Positions 8,262 through 34,059 of a stretch of 64,000 nucleotides of DNA are shown here, in pieces. Source of the DNA: a virus. Numbering within the stretch: the first letter of the stretch is position 1; every line of letters starts with the position of its first letter. The translations under genes and the position numbers were made by a program. Below the pieces are notes generated by a model. It searched no databases and was not told the DNA's origin. It saw only the letters and a program-made list of their open reading frames with translations. Location: IMG/VR virus record IMGVR_UViG_3300017783_000007, positions 14,496 through 78,495 of that record, one strand, 5' to 3'.

Positions 8262-11078
8262 TTATGATGACCAGGCTGGCATATTTGCGGAGCCTAAAAT
8301 TCCTCTATAATAGTCATGTATTTTCTGCATATTAGCTGTAGATAAAACATTATCATACACAATAAGTGCTCTAACATGGTGAGGTTTTCTAAACGTTGCA
8401 GAAACATACCCATTAAAGTCTATCCCGCTAGGGAATACAGCCCCTGATATTATAGCAGTATTATACTTAGATTGCTCATGAGCATCAAATGATGTATTTC
8501 TATCATTCAGGACGGTATTACCGTTAACTCTATGTTCCCGAGTTTCTCCACTATGAGTATTAATTGCTGAAGTTTGACCGGTAGTTGACCCGTCTTGGAG
8601 TACATAAGCGTAAGTACTCGAATTACTACCATAGCTCCACAAAAGAGTATTTTCTAGTGTAGTTGGTGTGTGATAAATTAAAATAACAGTCTTAGCTTTT
8701 CCACTCCCTGTACCCGAAAGTGCAGTAGGAAATTCAAAGTTTCCTACGCTCTCCCCGCCCGCCGCAAATTGCATTGCAGCTACACTATGAGCGGTTGTGC
8801 TAGAAGAGTATGTTCCACCAGAAAAAGTTATATTGTTACTATTAGAAGAAATATCAGTCCACGTTGTACCTGAGCCCCCATAACTACTGGAGTCTCCAAA
8901 GTCCCAAAATCCTATTAAACCTGATATACTAGTAGGTCCAAAAGATAATGTAAACGTTGAAGAAGCACTGTTAGTTCTTACACCATCAAAAGCCTTAAAT
9001 CTAGCAGTAAATGTTCCGCCATTAGACTCATTAGTACTAGGAGTTACTGTGAATGTGCCCCCACTTTGGGTAATTGTAGCTTGAGCTTGATTAGAAGGGC
9101 TGGTATCATGACTATAAGTCACATCGAACCCTTCTGGATCTGTAGCTGCTACAGTAACAGTAGTTGCTGTGCCGTCCGCTTCTAGTGCGTAGGAAGCTGC
9201 GGGACTAGTAGTGAATTCAGGCAGTGTGTTTACTCCGCTAAAAATTCTATCCCACTCCGTACCGTCCCAGCCATAAAAAGCTTTCACATCCGTTACAAAT
9301 GCTAGGTCTCCACCAGTATTTCCAGAAGAAGGTAGAGCTGCTATGTTTGCATATGTAGTTACACCACCTCCTGGGAGGAGCAGCCCGGCTGCCGCTGCTG
9401 CTGCAATTTCGCTTTTTACAATTAACTTAGTCGCTGAAACAGCGGTTCCTGCTAATACTGAAGGAGATCCCGCTGTTGTTGACAGTGTACCGTCGTTTTG
9501 TATGTAATAAGACTGCCCGGCAGTTAGCCCAGACTGAGCATCATCTACTGAACCTATAAGTTGAACTGTAGCAGTAGCAGAATTAGCATAGGCCGCATCC
9601 GATACTCCTATGTAGTTACTTGCTGTAAGATTTGTTGAAGTTGAGGCTGCCCTAGCTGTTTGCTTTACACGAGCTGTTCCACGGTTAGAGTTTCCTCTGT
9701 CCCTATAAGCGAGTACTACTTTGTTTGAATTTGAGTCAAAAGTTGTACCATAATTATTATCTGATTCACCACTGTTGTATACCTCTGCTGAACCCAGAGT
9801 AAGACTTGTCCCGCTCACAGTACACTCACGAAGAGTACCGTACCAAGAGTTGGCTACATCTAAGTAGGTAATTACAATTTTATTAGTATTTGAGTCAAAA
9901 ACAACACTATTATCATACATGCCTCCCGTCGTAATCCCAGTAACTTCTGTTCCAAAACTAATACTGCTACCGCTCACTGTACCTACCCTGATTGCTCCTG
10001 CAGCAGAATTAGCATAATACATTGCTACGACTTTATTTGAGTTTGAGTCAAAACCGAGAGCAATGTCATTAGCTCCATTAGAACTGACACTCACGGCAGT
10101 ACCAAAACTAATACTTGTTCCAGATACTGTACCTACAATTGCTTTAGTAGAACGAGAACTATCTGAGTTGTTTCCGTCCACGTAGACTAATACGCATTTA
10201 TTTGAGTTTGAATCAAATACAACATCTCCCGCCTTGCTCGCTCCTGTTGTACCGTTATAAAGTACACGACTACCAAAACTAATACTTGTTCCAGATACTG
10301 TACCTACTCTTACCGCTGCATGGAACCCAGTATTTGTAGAGCTAACGTAAGCAGCTCCTTTATATACATAACAGACTACAACTTTATTTGCATATGAGTC
10401 AAAAGTGATACCCCCTCTATTGGCAAAGGAGGACGAACCTATGTCACTGGTCATATCAGAAATAGGCTCCATAATGGTTGGCGAGCCAAAACTAATACTT
10501 GTTCCAGATACTGTACCTACAATTGCGGTAGCTCGGTCCCTCGAATACGTTGTACCACTGATAGTCTCGGCATGCTTATCCTGATATACAATTACAATTT
10601 TATTTGAATTTGAGTCAAAAGTGATCATAGGCCAGCTAGTTTCTCTTGTATTAAATACCACTTCACTTCCAAAACTAATACTGTTACCGGACACTGTACC
10701 TACGATTGCCGTTCCGTAGTTACTGTTACCTGCATCCCTATAAGCGAGTACTACTTTGTTTGAATTTGAGTCAAAAGTTGCACTGGCGCCTTGCTGTCCT
10801 GTATTAGCTGTGCTGTCATTAAATACAGTCTCACTACCTAAAGCAGCAGCAATCGCACTAACCTCTGAGCCTGCCACAGCACTTACAGTACCATCAGAGT
10901 TTACTATAACCATATCTCCATTTGCAAGAGCCCCACTCGCAGTAGCTGTGAGAGTAGGATTCGCTGCTGAACTAGAAGTAATTTTCCATTTTTCGGTAGA
11001 ACTATTATAAGTGTAATTCCTACCATCCGCTGTTATTGTGTCTCCATTACTGGGACTATCTGTAAAGTTAATTGCCAT
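8262..11078 (-). CDS. Modular fibre/adhesin protein (N-terminal plug, beta-propeller, cadherin/Ig-like domain, LamG-like C-terminus)
   Basis: MAINFTDSPSNGDT N-terminus. About 6 FDSNSNKVV...GTVSGxSISFG blades. TDPEGF Ig-like unit. LIGFWDFGDSSSYGGSGTTWTDIS start and ALIVYDNVLS end typical of phage LamG/ConA-like domains. Confidence 0.75.
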   Translation of the reverse strand: MAINFTDSPSNGDTITADGRNYTYNSSTEKWKITSSSAANPTLTATASGALANGDMVIVNSDGTVSAVAGSEVSAIAAALGSETVFNDSTANTGQQGASATFDSNSNKVVLAYRDAGNSNYGTAIVGTVSGNSISFGSEVVFNTRETSWPMITFDSNSNKIVIVYQDKHAETISGTTYSRDRATAIVGTVSGTSISFGSPTIMEPISDMTSDIGSSSFANRGGITFDSYANKVVVCYVYKGAAYVSSTNTGFHAAVRVGTVSGTSISFGSRVLYNGTTGASKAGDVVFDSNSNKCVLVYVDGNNSDSSRSTKAIVGTVSGTSISFGTAVSVSSNGANDIALGFDSNSNKVVAMYYANSAAGAIRVGTVSGSSISFGTEVTGITTGGMYDNSVVFDSNTNKIVITYLDVANSWYGTLRECTVSGTSLTLGSAEVYNSGESDNNYGTTFDSNSNKVVLAYRDRGNSNRGTARVKQTARAASTSTNLTASNYIGVSDAAYANSATATVQLIGSVDDAQSGLTAGQSYYIQNDGTLSTTAGSPSVLAGTAVSATKLIVKSEIAAAAAAGLLLPGGGVTTYANIAALPSSGNTGGDLAFVTDVKAFYGWDGTEWDRIFSGVNTLPEFTTSPAASYALEADGTATTVTVAATDPEGFDVTYSHDTSPSNQAQATITQSGGTFTVTPSTNESNGGTFTARFKAFDGVRTNSASSTFTLSFGPTSISGLIGFWDFGDSSSYGGSGTTWTDISSNSNNITFSGGTYSSSTTAHSVAAMQFAAGGESVGNFEFPTALSGTGSGKAKTVILIYHTPTTLENTLLWSYGSNSSTYAYVLQDGSTTGQTSAINTHSGETREHRVNGNTVLNDRNTSFDAHEQSKYNTAIISGAVFPSGIDFNGYVSATFRKPHHVRALIVYDNVLSTANMQKIHDYYRGILGSANMPAWSS

Positions 11079-11080
11079 TT

Positions 11081-11398
11081 TTATACCTCTATAATGTTAA
11101 CGCTTAGAGCAGAATTCCACAATATATCAAGCTGTTTAGCCCACATATTGTAATGCGACTTTATATCTTGTTTATTTTCAGGAAGTTTAGATAAACTCCT
11201 TACATATTCTACTGTAAAAGTGTCTAATAATTCTTGCTCAGTATTAAACTTCATTTTTTTAGGCTCAAAAATCCAAAAAACATCTTTAGTTAAACTCTCA
11301 TCCGTTTCACTTACTAAGGTTATATTCGCTTGTATATACTTAATAGTATTGTCTACATGATATACCTTAACAGAGTTCCATTGTTCTATAAAATTCAT
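11081..11398 (-). CDS. Hypothetical protein
   Basis: Tightly packed in the operon. Likely ATG at 11398 with GGGAG SD, rather than GTG 11410. Confidence 0.65.
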   Translation of the reverse strand: MNFIEQWNSVKVYHVDNTIKYIQANITLVSETDESLTKDVFWIFEPKKMKFNTEQELLDTFTVEYVRSLSKLPENKQDIKSHYNMWAKQLDILWNSALSVNIIEV

Positions 11399-11400
11399 AC

Positions 11401-33271: not shown

Positions 33272-33290
33272 TTATGAACTCCGGGGTAGC

Positions 33291-33713
33291 CTAAAAGGCT
33301 CCTGCATCTAGTGTGTCTGAATCTCCTTCAGCTGCACCTACAATTATAGGTACCCACTCAAAAGTGCCAGTACTAGTTTCGCGATATATTTTTACTTGGT
33401 CATCGTCCGTATCATACCAAATATTTCCCTCACTTACAGAAGAGCCCCCTGTTGGGGCCGGTGTATTATCCTGTGAATAAGAAGCCAGATCGGCTAGCTG
33501 CTTTACAGCGCCATCTATAGTTGTGGCCGTAATTTGGCCATAAGGAGTGAAGTATACGTTAGACGCAGATGCAGAAATAGGAAGAGCAAAGTTATTGACT
33601 ACTAAATCGGTCTGATCTCCCACAACATTTACAGAGATCGCACCTTCTTCACTTACTGTTATCTCTTTTACTTCTTCAGTGATACTAACCTGAGTAATGT
33701 CTTGATCAGCCAC
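33291..33713 (-). CDS. Fibre adaptor protein
   Basis: EGNIWYDTD...EWV module; ends LDAGAF; overlaps the upstream gene stop. Confidence 0.7.
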   Translation of the reverse strand: MADQDITQVSITEEVKEITVSEEGAISVNVVGDQTDLVVNNFALPISASASNVYFTPYGQITATTIDGAVKQLADLASYSQDNTPAPTGGSSVSEGNIWYDTDDDQVKIYRETSTGTFEWVPIIVGAAEGDSDTLDAGAF

Positions 33714-34059
33714 TTGCTCCCACCGTAATTCCAGCAGTAAGATTTACTGTGCCTTCGATAAGTCTCTTAACTGTGACATTATCCGCAGTATGTATTTCTA
33801 AATCGTAAACATACAGACCCGGCGATAGCGCCGCAGTAATATTTGGAAGTAGTTGCATTTTTATCTTACCATCCGTTACTGGGTCAGGAATAGTGCAAGT
33901 AAATGTAGCGGCTACATCAGTAGCACTCTTGCTAGTTTTCATCTTTGCACGAGCCGCGTAGCCGTCAAGGTTTTTAACTACCCCGGCTTCCTTAATAATC
34001 AAGTCGATCGCAAAAGTCGATCCCTGGTCAATCACTAGGTCATAGTTAGCTGCGCTCAT
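33706..34059 (-). CDS. Small virion structural protein (putative fibre-anchoring collar, BppU-N-like Ig fold)
   Basis: YDLVIDQGSTF...GxYVYDLEI...RLIEGTV motif. First gene after its own promoter, with GGAG SD. Confidence 0.7.
   Translation of the reverse strand: MSAANYDLVIDQGSTFAIDLIIKEAGVVKNLDGYAARAKMKTSKSATDVAATFTCTIPDPVTDGKIKMQLLPNITAALSPGLYVYDLEIHTADNVTVKRLIEGTVNLTAGITVGASG

What the first reader, a model, noticed from the sequence alone, without database searches (positions are those of the whole stretch)
8262..34059. Candidate branched fibre tree built with a plug-and-socket code that follows gene order
Seen in sequence: a 26 kb block of 14 genes with its own promoter, where one gene's C-terminal module is repeatedly followed by a characteristic N-terminal module in the next gene. 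(1) ...LDAGAF* (33291) then MAQTIQIKRR..GELAYN (31529), and ...LDGGTY* (31529) then MAQTIKLKRS..GEVAIN (31192). (2) ...GDMWRD..YIYYYDGSSFQWVEI* (31192) then MALTFPSSPSNGDT (21559). (3) T4 gp9/gp10-like C-terminal domain (21559) then MANYIDIK (19860). (4) S74 chaperone end (15216) then MALASSG..FGG..ISFSEY (14605). (5) Beta-sandwich end (12811) then MYAKLKF (11627). The 97 aa gene at 31192 is little more than plug type 1 plus socket type 2, i.e. a pure converter. Established: gp10-like domains dock tailspikes in branched RBP systems such as CBA120 and G7C. Inference: several orthogonal docking pairs assemble one multi-branched adhesive apparatus, cellulosome-like in logic, with perhaps 5 or more distinct binding tips.
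Basis: partly seen in the sequence, partly recalled or inferred. Interest (0 to 1): 0.88.

Follow-up and report, generated by a model that had tools for sequence, protein, structure and literature searches.

The report
Multi-gene phage tail-fibre connector chain
A marine T5-like phage builds its side tail fibres from many separately encoded pieces that seem to join end to end through short conserved connector motifs. One connector pair is widespread in phages and passed a structure-prediction test, but the proposed branched "tree" is not shown.

Summary
All quoted gene ends, starts and coordinates are correct: 14 minus-strand genes follow a gpJ-like tip gene behind a near-consensus promoter.

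The block is the lateral-fibre apparatus of a distant T5-like marine siphophage.
- The 117 aa protein folds like the T5 p132 / DT57C LtfC collar.
- Pair 1 (C-terminal LD[AG]G.[FY]*, then MAQTI..KR) is real and general. 157 of 159 distinct junctions keep it, the codons vary synonymously, and two sub-types co-vary. It also occurs in a Prochlorococcus myophage, a Vibrio podophage, S-CBS2 and a Ralstonia phage.
- A trimer-on-trimer model puts exactly these motifs at the interface (ipSAE 0.82; best control 0.04).
- Pair 2 (97 aa adaptor, then giant fibre) is conserved in relatives.
- Pair 4 fits the S16 gp37/gp38 pattern: the S74 chaperone is cleaved off, so any docking is on the matured tip.
- Pairs 3 and 5 are cassette co-occurrences in close relatives only.

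Four fibres share the SPSNGDT N-terminus. The "socket" beta-prism is an internal shaft repeat, with up to 19 copies in other proteins. The gp10-like end is XD1, which the CBA120 study calls a spacer.

Branching is unproven. Two other first-stage notes on this same genome describe the same motifs; none concern other DNA.

The parts
34126..40116 (-). Context: 1996 aa gpJ-like central tail fibre / tip protein, immediately upstream of the block.
   Evidence: Pfam Phage-tail_3 E 7e-23; phrog_31 'central tail fiber J' E 4e-130.
34079..34107 (-). Promoter-like site (TTGACT, 17 nt, TG-TATAAT) ahead of the block.
   Evidence: 11 of 12 matches, the best site in the scanned 10.5 kb. It is a consensus match only.
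33706..34059 (-). 117 aa collar protein of the T5 p132 / DT57C LtfC type, the presumed anchor ring for the lateral fibres.
   Evidence: AF2 model with pLDDT 92. The top Foldseek hits are DT57C baseplate 8HQZ chains Q/T (E 5e-9, TMq 0.73) and T5 tail tip 7QG9 chains L/J (E 1e-8). phrog_3304 'L-shaped tail fiber protein assembly' matches at E 2e-14.
33291..33713 (-). 140 aa first fibre segment with a divergent beta-prism module (residues 83-123) and the C-terminal connector C1a (..TLDAGAF*, nt 33294-33314). It is presumed to sit in the collar.
   Evidence: The position after the collar gene is conserved in all five mapped relatives. The collar contact is inferred from DT57C LtfA (PMC10713586) and was not tested.
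31529..33271 (-). 580 aa second segment: N-terminal connector N1a (MAQTIQIKRR..GELAYN), a body related to the LME-1 tail fibre, and C-terminal connector C1b (..NTLDGGTY*, nt 31532-31555).
   Evidence: PDB 9EFK orf22, E 2e-10, residues 322-511; junction statistics; complex model.
31504..31515 (.). 12-nt palindrome GCGTATATACGC between the stop of the 580 aa gene and the ribosome-binding site of the 97 aa gene. Role unknown.
   Evidence: Present at 57 of 64 distinct junctions and nowhere else in 700 kb of related loci. It occurs once in the window.
31192..31485 (-). 97 aa adaptor: N1b (residues 1-31, weakly Mtd_N-like) plus a beta-prism module B (residues 56-97) that ends the protein (..QWVEI*).
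   Evidence: Pfam Mtd_N in 4 of 10 family members, best E 0.003. Complex model. Fused N1-B-fibre proteins exist elsewhere.
21559..31182 (-). 3207 aa giant fibre: N2 anchor (residues 1-43), long shaft, internal B module (residues 3062-3101, nt 21880-21999), and a C-terminal XD1 domain (gp9/gp10-like; about residues 3105-3207).
   Evidence: phmmer to CBA120 TSP4-N (7RFV/7REJ/7RFO) gives E 9e-10. phrog_24456 is annotated tail fibre.
19860..21554 (-). 564 aa receptor-binding-type protein without an N2 anchor. It is homologous to the C-terminal third of the 938 aa fibre and is a candidate tip partner of the giant fibre.
   Evidence: 30% identity to residues 570-896 of the 938 aa protein, E 6e-27. 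Weak Cadherin-like, Big_9 and FG-GAP hits. It follows a ..GWVLINR* end in G000 and G002.
15216..19850 (-). 1544 aa fibre: N2 anchor, B module (residues 1091-1131), and an S74 intramolecular chaperone (residues 1443-1507). The predicted cut is at ..GDVVAYYS^SDERLK.
   Evidence: Pfam Peptidase_S74 E 4e-16.
14605..15216 (-). 203 aa protein with the conserved N-terminal module N3 (MAL.SSG..FS..QTEFGG.NPISFSEYY) and a variable beta-sandwich. Candidate tip protein for the matured 1544 aa fibre.
   Evidence: Its start overlaps the upstream stop by 1 nt (both genes include 15216). The Atlas lead to Gp38_N is weak.
14094..14612 (-). 172 aa accessory protein of unknown family that travels with the S74 fibre and the 203 aa gene.
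   Evidence: The same trio occurs in G004. No family hit.
12811..14091 (-). 426 aa short fibre: N2 anchor, B module (residues 155-195), C-terminal ..LYLVFSFS*.
   Evidence: 39% identity to residues 918-1342 of the 1544 aa protein, E 2e-74.
11627..12787 (-). 386 aa protein (MYAKLKF..) of unknown family, the first gene of a three-gene accessory set.
   Evidence: It follows a ..LYLV[FL]SFS* end in G000, G002, G003 and L114, but not in G001. No family hit.
11401..11616 (-). 71 aa accessory ORF (ends ..DPESWE*).
   Evidence: Conserved position and end in G002, G003 and L114.
11081..11410 (-). 109 aa accessory ORF.
   Evidence: Conserved position in G002, G003 and L114.
8262..11078 (-). 938 aa fibre: N2 anchor, shaft, and a fused receptor-binding region like the 564 aa protein.

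Best explanation
The block encodes the lateral tail-fibre apparatus of a distant T5-like marine siphophage, assembled from separately encoded segments.

- Proximal chain. A p132/LtfC-type collar (117 aa) holds a short first segment (140 aa). That segment is extended head to tail by the 580 aa segment and then by the 97 aa adaptor. At each of these two joints, the last roughly 8 residues of one trimer (LD[AG]G.[FY]) pair as a parallel strand with the first roughly 11 residues (MAQTI..KR.) of the Mtd_N-like N-terminal domain of the next trimer. Two co-varying sub-types keep the order fixed.
- Distal fibres. The adaptor ends in a small beta-prism, onto which the SPSNGDT N-terminal anchor of the giant 3207 aa fibre is inferred to dock. 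Three further fibres (1544, 426, 938 aa) carry the same kind of anchor. At least two fibres appear to carry separately encoded distal partners: the 564 aa protein on the XD1 end of the giant, and the 203 aa protein on the 1544 aa fibre tip exposed after the S74 chaperone cuts itself off.
- Gene order. It mirrors assembly order for the proximal chain, as in T4 gp34-37. Beyond that, the cluster is a set of exchangeable fibre-plus-accessory cassettes.

Shown here: the folds and families, the conserved adjacency, and a passing model for one joint. Inferred: all other contacts, the stoichiometry, and where fibres 2-4 attach.
For: Phage type and tail fibres:
- terL is about 49% identical to T5-like Vibrio phages.
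- gpJ lies upstream, and the large proteins match tail-fibre PHROGs.

Collar:
- The 117 aa model (pLDDT 92) best matches DT57C LtfC and T5 p132.
- In those phages 12 collar copies anchor three fibre trimers by strand augmentation (PMC10713586, PMC12617516).

Joint 1:
- 89/89 and 68/70 junctions keep the pair.
- The bodies differ on both sides: upstream 355-855 aa, downstream 97-1719 aa.
- There are synonymous changes at nearly every motif codon.
- Position -2 of C1 co-varies with residue 7 of N1 in 160 of 166 junctions.
- The same chain occurs in P-HM2, Ralstonia phage PY059YO380, S-CBS2 and Vibrio phage 1.208.B.

Complex model: ipSAE 0.82, 0.82 and 0.77, with a best control of 0.04.
- In the tool's calibration this mark was reached by 58 of 80 solved complexes and 2 of 110 mismatched pairs.
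- Partner pLDDT was at least 85, and the runs shared at least 86% of contacts.
- The interface is residues 573-580 plus 553, 556 and 558-560 of the 580 aa protein, against residues 1-11, 15, 17-18, 21-23 and 28 of the 97 aa protein.
- No solved relative of the 97 aa family was found by sequence.

Joint 2:
- All 16 loci with a 97 aa homologue are followed by an N2 giant. The gap is 0 to about 10 nt in the 12 such loci mapped in detail.
- In many other phages N1-B is the covalent N-terminus of a fibre, which points to gene fission here.

Tip partners:
- N3 proteins follow fibres ending ..GDVTA[YF]GT[IV]*, and the 1544 aa fibre has ..GDVVAYYS^SDERLK just before its S74 domain.
- In phage S16, chaperone autocleavage exposes the gp38 docking surface (PMC7917993).
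- Two XD1-end variants go with two different next-gene N-termini.
- The 564 aa protein is the detached form of the receptor-binding region that is fused in the 938 aa fibre.
Against: - Only one joint was modelled, and only against unrelated controls, not against non-cognate plugs.
- The relatives share ancestry, so junction counts and the co-variation are not independent events. Distant phages break the -2/7 rule.
- S-8S55 has an N1 fibre behind a gene that does not end in the connector.
- The 117 aa family shows no sequence match to p132. The link is by fold and a PHROG label only.
- Nothing places the 140 aa protein in the collar.
- Three of the four N2 fibres follow genes with unrelated ends, so their attachment site is unknown.
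- XD1 is described as a spacer in CBA120 (PMC8825819).
- The 203 aa protein shows no gp38 fold or Pfam hit.
- The small accessory genes could be chaperones rather than virion parts.
Confidence: 0.6

Rival explanations
1. Branched tree. Each internal class-II beta-prism module is a lateral socket for one SPSNGDT (N2) anchor. The giant fibre would then carry the 1544 aa fibre, that fibre would carry the 426 aa fibre, and so on, giving one multi-tipped appendage per collar site.
For: - Class-II socket to plug counts are 3:3 (this genome), 1:1 and 6:5 in complete clusters, and 4:4 and 3:3 in two truncated ones.
- Five contigs that have joint 1 but no 97 aa adaptor lack both modules.
- The modules are flanked by Gly-rich linkers.
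- Branched fibres exist in T5-like DT57C (PMC4728585), and tandem docking sites on a 'rope' protein exist in phage A1002 (PMC13730344).
Against: - The module is a common shaft repeat. It has up to 18-19 matched stretches in single proteins elsewhere and sits in more than 10,000 protein clusters.
- It occurs as tandem triplets 50 aa apart.
- Its homologue in CBA120 TSP4 is a trimerising beta-prism with no reported lateral partner (PMC8825819).
- Its high conservation between the 426 and 1544 aa proteins extends over the next 105 residues, so it looks like a shared recombination block.
- Only three complete clusters were available, and no model or experiment was possible.
Confidence: 0.17
2. Alternative fibres with no branching. 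The few collar sites each end in a 97 aa adaptor, and the four N2 fibres compete for that single kind of socket. Virions would then be mosaics, or differ from one another in which fibres they carry.
For: - Four proteins share one anchor type, but only one terminal beta-prism end exists.
- T5-type collars hold three fibres and Ur-lambda holds four (PMC10713586, PMC12617516).
- The number of N2 fibres varies from 2 to 6 among relatives that share the same proximal chain.
Against: - The giant's N2 differs as a class from the other three (FPSSPSNGDT..ITWT..VWQNNVIGLSG against FT[DN]SPS.G.T..YT[YF]). Likewise the adaptor's prism (GDMWRD) differs from the internal ones (GDLWFD). That argues for two specificities rather than one shared socket.
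- The giant always comes first after the adaptor.
Confidence: 0.15
3. No docking. The conserved gene boundaries are recombination or regulatory linkers for swapping fibre cassettes, and the terminal motifs are self-contained trimer caps. The small downstream genes are assembly chaperones, not virion parts.
For: - A junction-specific palindrome is conserved at the DNA level exactly at the boundary between the constant base and the variable distal genes.
- Cassette shuffling is evident in the 426/1544 shared block, in the 938 aa protein being a 523-like fibre plus a 564-like region, and in the variable gene sets.
- Fibre genes are commonly followed by chaperone genes (established knowledge).
Against: - The motif codons vary synonymously while the amino acids stay fixed.
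- An N1 start almost never occurs without an upstream C1 end (157 of 159).
- Chain starters have C1 only and chain enders have N1 only.
- The model's interface is made of exactly the two motifs, with controls at or below 0.04.
- The N3 family has a conserved N-terminus and variable C-domains, as expected of an adhesin rather than a chaperone.
Confidence: 0.08

Closest known systems
T4 long tail fibre (gp34-gp35-gp36-gp37)
   Same: A fibre built serially from separately encoded segments, with gene order equal to assembly order and trimer ends joined head to tail (established knowledge; PMC5537660 for gp34).
   Different: - The connector modules are unrelated.
- There is no monomeric hinge protein like gp35.
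- The fibre is attached to a siphophage collar, not to gp9.
- The same connector pair is used twice, in two sub-types.
T5 / DT57C lateral tail fibres (p132 or LtfC collar, pb1 or LtfA, LtfB branch)
   Same: - T5-like terminase.
- A collar-protein fold encoded just before the fibre genes.
- Fibres with an S74 chaperone.
- DT57C shows that a second fibre protein can branch off the first (PMC4728585, PMC10713586).
   Different: - The tip protein is lambda gpJ-like.
- The fibre that enters the collar is split into 140, 580 and 97 aa pieces plus a 3207 aa giant.
- There are 14 genes instead of 2-3.
- There is no sequence similarity to LtfA or LtfB.
CBA120 TSP4-N / T4 gp10 and gp9 (AD-XD1-XD2-XD3)
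   Same: The end of the 3207 aa protein matches TSP4-N residues 43-175, that is the beta-prism II part of the anchor domain plus XD1 (E 9e-10).
   Different: - Here the module is C-terminal, not N-terminal.
- XD2 and XD3, the domains that dock TSP1-3 and gp11/gp12, are absent.
- XD1 is described as a spacer that cannot take a coaxial trimer because linkers leave both of its faces (PMC8825819). Here its distal face is free.
S16 / T2-type gp37 with intramolecular chaperone plus gp38 tip adhesin
   Same: A fibre with a self-cleaving S74-type C-terminal chaperone (S^SD.R.K site) is followed by a small gene whose product has a conserved N-terminal attachment region and a variable distal domain (PMC7917993).
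   Different: - No Gp38_N or GP38 Pfam hit, and no fold match to solved structures.
- The same N-terminal module also follows fibres that lack the chaperone and simply end at the equivalent strand.
Bordetella phage BPP-1 Mtd (Pfam Mtd_N)
   Same: The N1 connector gives weak Mtd_N hits. From my own recollection, not checked here, Mtd trimers sit on the ends of another fibre protein.
   Different: - The hits are below the Pfam threshold.
- No C-type lectin variable domain and no diversity-generating retroelement was seen in the block.
- The C-terminal partner motif is not described for BPP-1, to my knowledge.
Rope-and-dimer chain fibres of podophages A1002 / GP4 / VP1
   Same: Several fibre units dock in tandem on repeated sites of one carrier protein by beta-sheet augmentation (PMC13730344). 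This is a precedent for repeated sockets along a shaft.
   Different: Those units are dimers on a monomeric rope that is part of the nozzle. The proteins are unrelated and the phages are of a different morphotype.

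Membership tests
T5 p132 / DT57C LtfC collar protein | Small single-domain beta-sandwich with the p132/LtfC fold. 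| tested here: met
   AF2 model with pLDDT 92. The top four Foldseek PDB hits are LtfC (8HQZ, E 5e-9, TMq 0.73) and p132 (7QG9, E 1e-8).
T5 p132 / DT57C LtfC collar protein | Detectable sequence homology to p132/LtfC. | tested here: inconclusive
   phrog_3304 'L-shaped tail fiber protein assembly' matches at E 2e-14. However, phmmer against PDB and tblastn against phages found no T5-like hit.
T5 p132 / DT57C LtfC collar protein | Forms a dodecameric ring around the tail tip that takes up the fibre N-termini. | not testable with these tools
   Only the gene position (between gpJ and the fibre genes) is consistent.
Pfam Mtd_N (PF18454) for the N1 connector | Profile match above the Pfam gathering score. 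| tested here: inconclusive
   The window's 97 aa and 580 aa proteins give no hit. Four of 10 family members hit Mtd_N, with a best E of 0.003.
CBA120 TSP4-N / T4 gp10-like branching hub | AD beta-prism II plus XD1 domain. | tested here: met
   Residues about 3066-3205 of the 3207 aa protein align to TSP4-N residues 43-175, E 9e-10.
CBA120 TSP4-N / T4 gp10-like branching hub | XD2 and XD3 jelly-roll domains, the ones that dock partner trimers. | tested here: not met
   The match stops at TSP4 residue 175 and the protein ends there. No other protein of the block that was searched matched TSP4.
Peptidase_S74 intramolecular chaperone fibres | S74 domain at the C-terminus with the serine cleavage motif. 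| tested here: met
   Pfam E 4e-16 at residues 1443-1507. The motif ..AYYS^SDERLKEN is present. Cleavage itself is not testable here.
gp38-type tip adhesin (Pfam Gp38_N / GP38) | Gp38_N attachment domain or the gp38 fold. | tested here: inconclusive
   - No Pfam hit in 20 family members.
- The N-terminal 71 residues are unmodelled (pLDDT below 50).
- Foldseek found nothing at E 0.001 or better, and the best VIA score was Z 5.7, to a TRAF-like sandwich.
- The Atlas neighbour cluster carries Gp38_N in only 16% of its members.
gp38-type tip adhesin (Pfam Gp38_N / GP38) | Encoded directly after a fibre whose chaperone cleavage exposes the docking end. | tested here: met
   The 203 aa gene's start overlaps the stop of the S74 fibre gene by 1 nt (shared base 15216). 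The same order occurs in G004.
Serially assembled segmented fibre (T4 gp34-37 type) | Physical end-to-end contact of products of consecutive genes. | tested here: inconclusive
   The complex prediction supports the 580>97 joint (ipSAE 0.82 against a best control of 0.04). It is a model, not a measurement, and the other joints were not modelled.
Lambda gpJ-type tail tip | Phage-tail_3 domain in a large protein after the gpM/L/K/I-sized genes and the tape-measure gene. | tested here: met

The most novel reading that the evidence does not exclude
Two claims make up this reading.
- The short C-terminal strand LD[AG]G.[FY] and the Mtd_N-like N-terminus MAQTI..KR form a previously undescribed, portable connector. 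It is used by sipho-, myo- and podoviruses to chain fibre segments onto an LtfC-type collar.
- In this phage group a second connector pair (internal class-II beta-prism and SPSNGDT anchor, present in matching numbers) turns the chain into a truly branched, multi-tipped fibre tree.
Probability: 0.17. Interest if true: 0.85.

Novelty: new variant of a known kind. Interest (0 to 1): 0.66.

Why it matters
Host range of tailed phages is set by their fibres, and how multi-protein fibres are held together is known for only a few model phages.

Here a very short sequence pair marks fibre joints in at least 160 distinct junctions from marine viral contigs. The pair is a seven-residue C-terminal strand plus an eleven-residue N-terminal strand on a small domain. 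It also occurs in cultured phages of Prochlorococcus, Synechococcus, Vibrio and Ralstonia.

If the joint is real, it would do three things:
- It gives a simple rule for reading which 'hypothetical proteins' are fibre segments and in what order they assemble.
- It explains how distal receptor-binding genes can be exchanged without touching the tail.
- It links T5-type collars to fibres of T4-like cyanophages.

The open question is whether four to six fibres with one anchor type branch from each other or compete for one site. This can be tested directly on cultured relatives.

Tried and rejected
- Megablast of 15 kb against the phage collection found nothing.
- Pfam, NCBIfam and PHROGs gave nothing for the 140, 203, 172, 386, 71 and 109 aa proteins. 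The Atlas gave only unnamed viral clusters for the 386 aa protein.
- An alignment of six N1 modules was too divergent for the search for related loci.
- N2 and B are not shown to be homologous: hhalign gave P 0.05, too weak to use.
- PDB sequence searches with the N2 profile, the 97 aa profile, the 117 and 140 aa proteins, and an N2+B N-terminus from a relative found nothing meaningful. So N2 as the triple beta-helix of the TSP4 anchor domain stays a guess.
- The gp38 reading of the 203 aa protein was not confirmed by fold or by Pfam.
- Single-protein scans for the 564 and 386 aa families found only G002, G003 and one new contig. Pairs 3 and 5 could therefore not be tested outside close relatives.
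- The records behind the metagenome loci are not held, so more complete clusters could not be counted.
- Rfam and tRNA scans of the window were empty.
- I first read 'S74 end as socket' as a plain contradiction. I revised this after seeing that the N3 module follows the equivalent strand in fibres without S74.
- The palindrome is not a general promoter, because it occurs only at this junction.
- Only one complex job was allowed, so joints 2-5 and all non-cognate combinations were not modelled.

Full report
**What is there**

The window is bases 14496-78495 of a 78.5 kb phage genome. Its large terminase is about 49% identical to those of T5-like Vibrio and Pectobacterium phages. The tail module is lambda-like: a tape-measure gene, four small genes, then a 1996 aa gpJ-type tip protein.

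Directly downstream, behind a near-consensus sigma-70-like site at 34107-34079, lie 14 minus-strand ORFs. They fill 8262-34059 with gaps of at most 43 nt. No tRNA or Rfam family lies in the window. The plus-strand ORFs inside the block are short and nested within the minus-strand genes.

**Modules**

An all-against-all comparison and small HMMs define six recurring modules.
- **N1:** MAQTI..KR..GE.A.N, at the start of the 580 and 97 aa proteins.
- **C1:** LD[AG]G.[FY]*, at the end of the 140 and 580 aa proteins.
- **B:** ..PS.P..GD.W.D..YIYY.DG.S.QW[VI]E.., about 40 aa. It is terminal in the 97 aa protein but internal in the 3207, 1544 and 426 aa proteins, with a divergent copy in the 140 aa protein.
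- **N2:** MA..F..SPSNGDT.T..G..YT[YF]N.....W, at the start of four proteins (3207, 1544, 426 and 938 aa).
- **N3:** MAL.SSG..FS..QTEFGG.NPISFSEYY, at the start of the 203 aa protein.
- **XD1:** the C-terminal domain of the 3207 aa protein.

The 426 aa protein is 39% identical to residues 918-1342 of the 1544 aa protein. The 564 aa protein is 30% identical to residues 570-896 of the 938 aa protein.

**Families**

*117 aa protein.* It gives a confident model (pLDDT 92). The best PDB matches are DT57C LtfC and T5 p132 (E 5e-9 and 1e-8). These proteins form the dodecameric collar into which the lateral fibres of T5-like phages are anchored by strand augmentation (PMC10713586, PMC12617516).

*End of the 3207 aa protein.* It matches CBA120 TSP4-N residues 43-175 (E 9e-10). 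According to the structure paper, that stretch is the beta-prism II half of the anchor domain followed by XD1. XD1's closest structural relative is a T4 gp9 domain (PMC8825819).

However, the domains that dock tailspikes in CBA120 and T4 are XD2 and XD3, which are absent here. The authors regard XD1 as a spacer. They add that it cannot take a coaxial partner because linkers leave both of its faces. In this protein the distal face is free.

*Other proteins.*
- The 1544 aa fibre has an S74 chaperone.
- N1 is weakly Mtd_N-like (4 of 10 relatives, best E 0.003).
- The middle of the 580 aa protein resembles the Legionella phage LME-1 tail fibre.

**Joint 1 (C1 then N1)**

Conservation:
- In the 80 best IMG/VR loci found with the 97 aa protein, every N1 gene is preceded, 24-126 nt upstream, by a gene ending [LI][DE]GG[ST][FY].
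- Across 64 distinct loci, 89 of 89 N1 genes have a C1 gene upstream. 113 of 123 C1 genes are followed by a start that a strict pattern recognises as N1. None of 1079 other ORFs is.
- A separate metagenome set adds 68 of 70 new junctions.
- The flanking bodies differ widely in length and family.

Level of constraint:
- Nearly every codon of both motifs varies synonymously, so the constraint acts on the proteins.
- Two sub-types co-vary: [TS] at position -2 goes with Leu7, and [ANQ] goes with Ile7. This holds in 160 of 166 junctions. It would keep the 97 aa adaptor from binding the 140 aa protein directly.
- These junctions are related by descent, and distant phages break the rule.

Spread of the four-gene chain (LtfC-like protein > small C1 protein > N1..C1 protein > N1 distal protein):
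- It occurs in Prochlorococcus myophage P-HM2, where the last member is the giant annotated 'gp7'.
- It occurs in Ralstonia phage PY059YO380.
- Comparable C1>N1 chains occur in Synechococcus siphophage S-CBS2 and the Zobellviridae Vibrio phage 1.208.B. The LtfC-like gene was not checked there.
- More than 10,000 protein clusters match the 97 aa profile.

Complex model. I spent the single complex job on this joint: three copies of the last 140 residues of the 580 aa protein with three copies of the 97 aa protein, each supplied with an alignment.
- The score was 0.82, with a best control of 0.04. In the tool's calibration this mark was reached by 58 of 80 solved complexes and 2 of 110 mismatched pairs.
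- Partner pLDDT was at least 85, and the runs shared at least 86% of contacts.
- The interface consists of residues 573-580 (plus 553, 556 and 558-560) of the 580 aa protein and residues 1-11, 15, 17-18, 21-23 and 28 of the 97 aa protein. Register-wise contacts indicate a parallel strand pair.
- No solved relative of the 97 aa family exists by sequence.
- This supports binding but does not show it.

**Joint 2 (B end then N2)**

All 16 loci with a full-length 97 aa homologue (down to 56% identity) have it ending W[VI][EQ]I*. The next gene is a giant that starts with N2. The gap is 0 to about 10 nt in the 12 such loci mapped in detail.

In many other phages, N1 and B form the first ~97 residues of a single longer fibre. 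Glycine-rich linkers follow B there, not N2. The 97 aa gene therefore looks like the detached head of a fibre, and N2 like the piece that restores the link. This contact was not modelled.

**Other pairs**

Pair 4:
- N3 proteins share the N-terminus and have variable C-terminal domains.
- In about 7 distinct locus types they overlap the stop of a gene ending ..GNLTV.GDVTA[YF]GT[IV]*.
- The 1544 aa fibre has ..GDVVAYYS^SDERLK exactly at the start of its S74 domain.
- In phage S16, chaperone autocleavage at S^SD.R.K exposes the gp38 docking surface (PMC7917993). The adjacency therefore makes sense, but the 'socket' is the matured tip, not S74.
- The 203 aa model has an unmodelled N-terminal 71 residues and a beta-sandwich with no clear PDB relative. 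Membership in the gp38 family is not established.

Pair 3:
- Two variants of the XD1 end go with two different next genes. ..GWVLINR* is followed by M[AT]NYIDIK, and ..STIGWVEI* by MTKVLGKDV. Each pairing occurs in two genomes.
- The 564 aa protein is the free form of the receptor-binding region that is fused in the 938 aa fibre.

Pair 5:
- ..LYLV[FL]SFS* is followed by MYAKLKF and two small ORFs in four of five cases.
- What these three proteins are is unknown.

**Branching**

Five related clusters share the proximal chain and then diverge into cassettes. N2 fibres follow genes with unrelated ends, so gene order does not say where fibres 2-4 attach.

Two observations favour internal B modules as sockets:
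- Class-II B modules (HMM scores 49-76 bits against less than 6 for noise) and class-II N2 anchors occur in near-equal numbers. The counts are 3:3, 1:1 and 6:5 in complete clusters, and 4:4 and 3:3 in truncated ones.
- Both modules are absent from five contigs that have joint 1 but lack the adaptor.

Four observations weigh against it:
- B is a very common shaft repeat, with up to 18-19 matched stretches per protein.
- It forms tandem triplets.
- It corresponds to a trimerising prism in TSP4.
- Its high identity between the 426 and 1544 aa proteins continues through the next 105 residues.

I put branching by this route at about one in six.

**Unexplained element**

A 12-nt palindrome, GCGTATATACGC (31504-31515), lies between the stop of the C1b gene and the ribosome-binding site of the MAQTIKLKRS gene. 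It is present at 57 of 64 distinct junctions and nowhere else in 700 kb of those loci. It marks the border between the constant base and the variable distal genes.

**Verdict**

This is a segmented, connector-joined lateral-fibre apparatus with at least two, and probably three, conserved joint types. One joint type is widespread and has modelling support. A cellulosome-like branched tree is possible but not shown.

Two other first-stage notes on this same genome (e1-6082325, e1-6082330) describe the same motifs.

Noticed in passing
window 31504-31515: Perfect 12-nt palindrome GCGTATATACGC between the 580 aa stop and the 97 aa ribosome-binding site. It is conserved at 57 of 64 distinct related junctions, absent elsewhere in 700 kb of those loci, and absent from the first (140>580) junction. 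A 1-mismatch copy lies at genome position 1928, outside the window.
   Followed up: partly
L195 (Prochlorococcus phage P-HM2) 97-5119; L197 (Ralstonia phage PY059YO380) 442-3181; L001 (Vibrio phage 1.208.B) 7561-11067; L002 (S-CBS2) 9381-13119: The chain LtfC-like protein > small protein ending ..GG.F* > N1..C1 protein > N1 distal protein occurs in P-HM2 (a T4-like cyanomyophage) and in Ralstonia phage PY059YO380. In P-HM2 the last member is the giant annotated 'gp7 baseplate wedge initiator'. Comparable C1>N1 chains occur in the Vibrio podophage and the cyanosiphophage S-CBS2, where the LtfC-like gene was not checked.
   Followed up: partly
L196 (Synechococcus phage S-8S55) 3-4966: Exception to joint 1: an N1-type fibre (MASNIRFKRSS..GEIAIN) follows a tail-fibre gene that ends in a coiled-coil-like ..QIDALKAKVDELSK*, not in the C1 motif. 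Whether that end is a cleaved chaperone was not checked.
   Followed up: no
window 8262-11078 and 19860-21554; L089/L090 (G003): The 938 aa fibre looks like a fusion of a 523 aa-type N2 fibre and a 564 aa-type receptor-binding region. The 523 aa protein of G003 ends ..AGTAVSATEIIVKG*, and the same string lies at about residues 545-558 of the 938 aa protein. The 564 aa protein's own N-terminus (residues 33-57) has a B-like GD..Y....LY.Y.G..W pattern that the B HMM does not score.
   Followed up: partly
L008 5610-6376: One relative has two tandem small proteins (128 and 126 aa) that both end ..GG[ST]Y*, ahead of the N1 gene. The second does not start with N1.
   Followed up: no
P0054, P0055, P0042: Mini-architectures built from the same modules exist elsewhere.
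- One 196 aa protein is N1-B-XD1-like.
- One 188 aa protein is N1-B-B with an ..LDGGT.. string near its end.
- Some giant proteins have 18-19 stretches matching the 97 aa profile.
   Followed up: no
L092-L110: The N3 module (..QTEFGG.NPIS.SEYY) heads a family of 240-331 aa proteins with different C-terminal domains. These sit in many small marine viral contigs, always directly abutting or overlapping (gap -1 to +1 nt) the end of a short fibre gene ending ..GDVTAYGTI*.
   Followed up: partly
window 12811-14091 against 15216-19850: Identity between the 426 and 1544 aa proteins is 74-78% over residues 155-300 of the 426 aa protein but about 30% on either side. This suggests a recently exchanged block inside two fibres of one genome.
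   Followed up: partly
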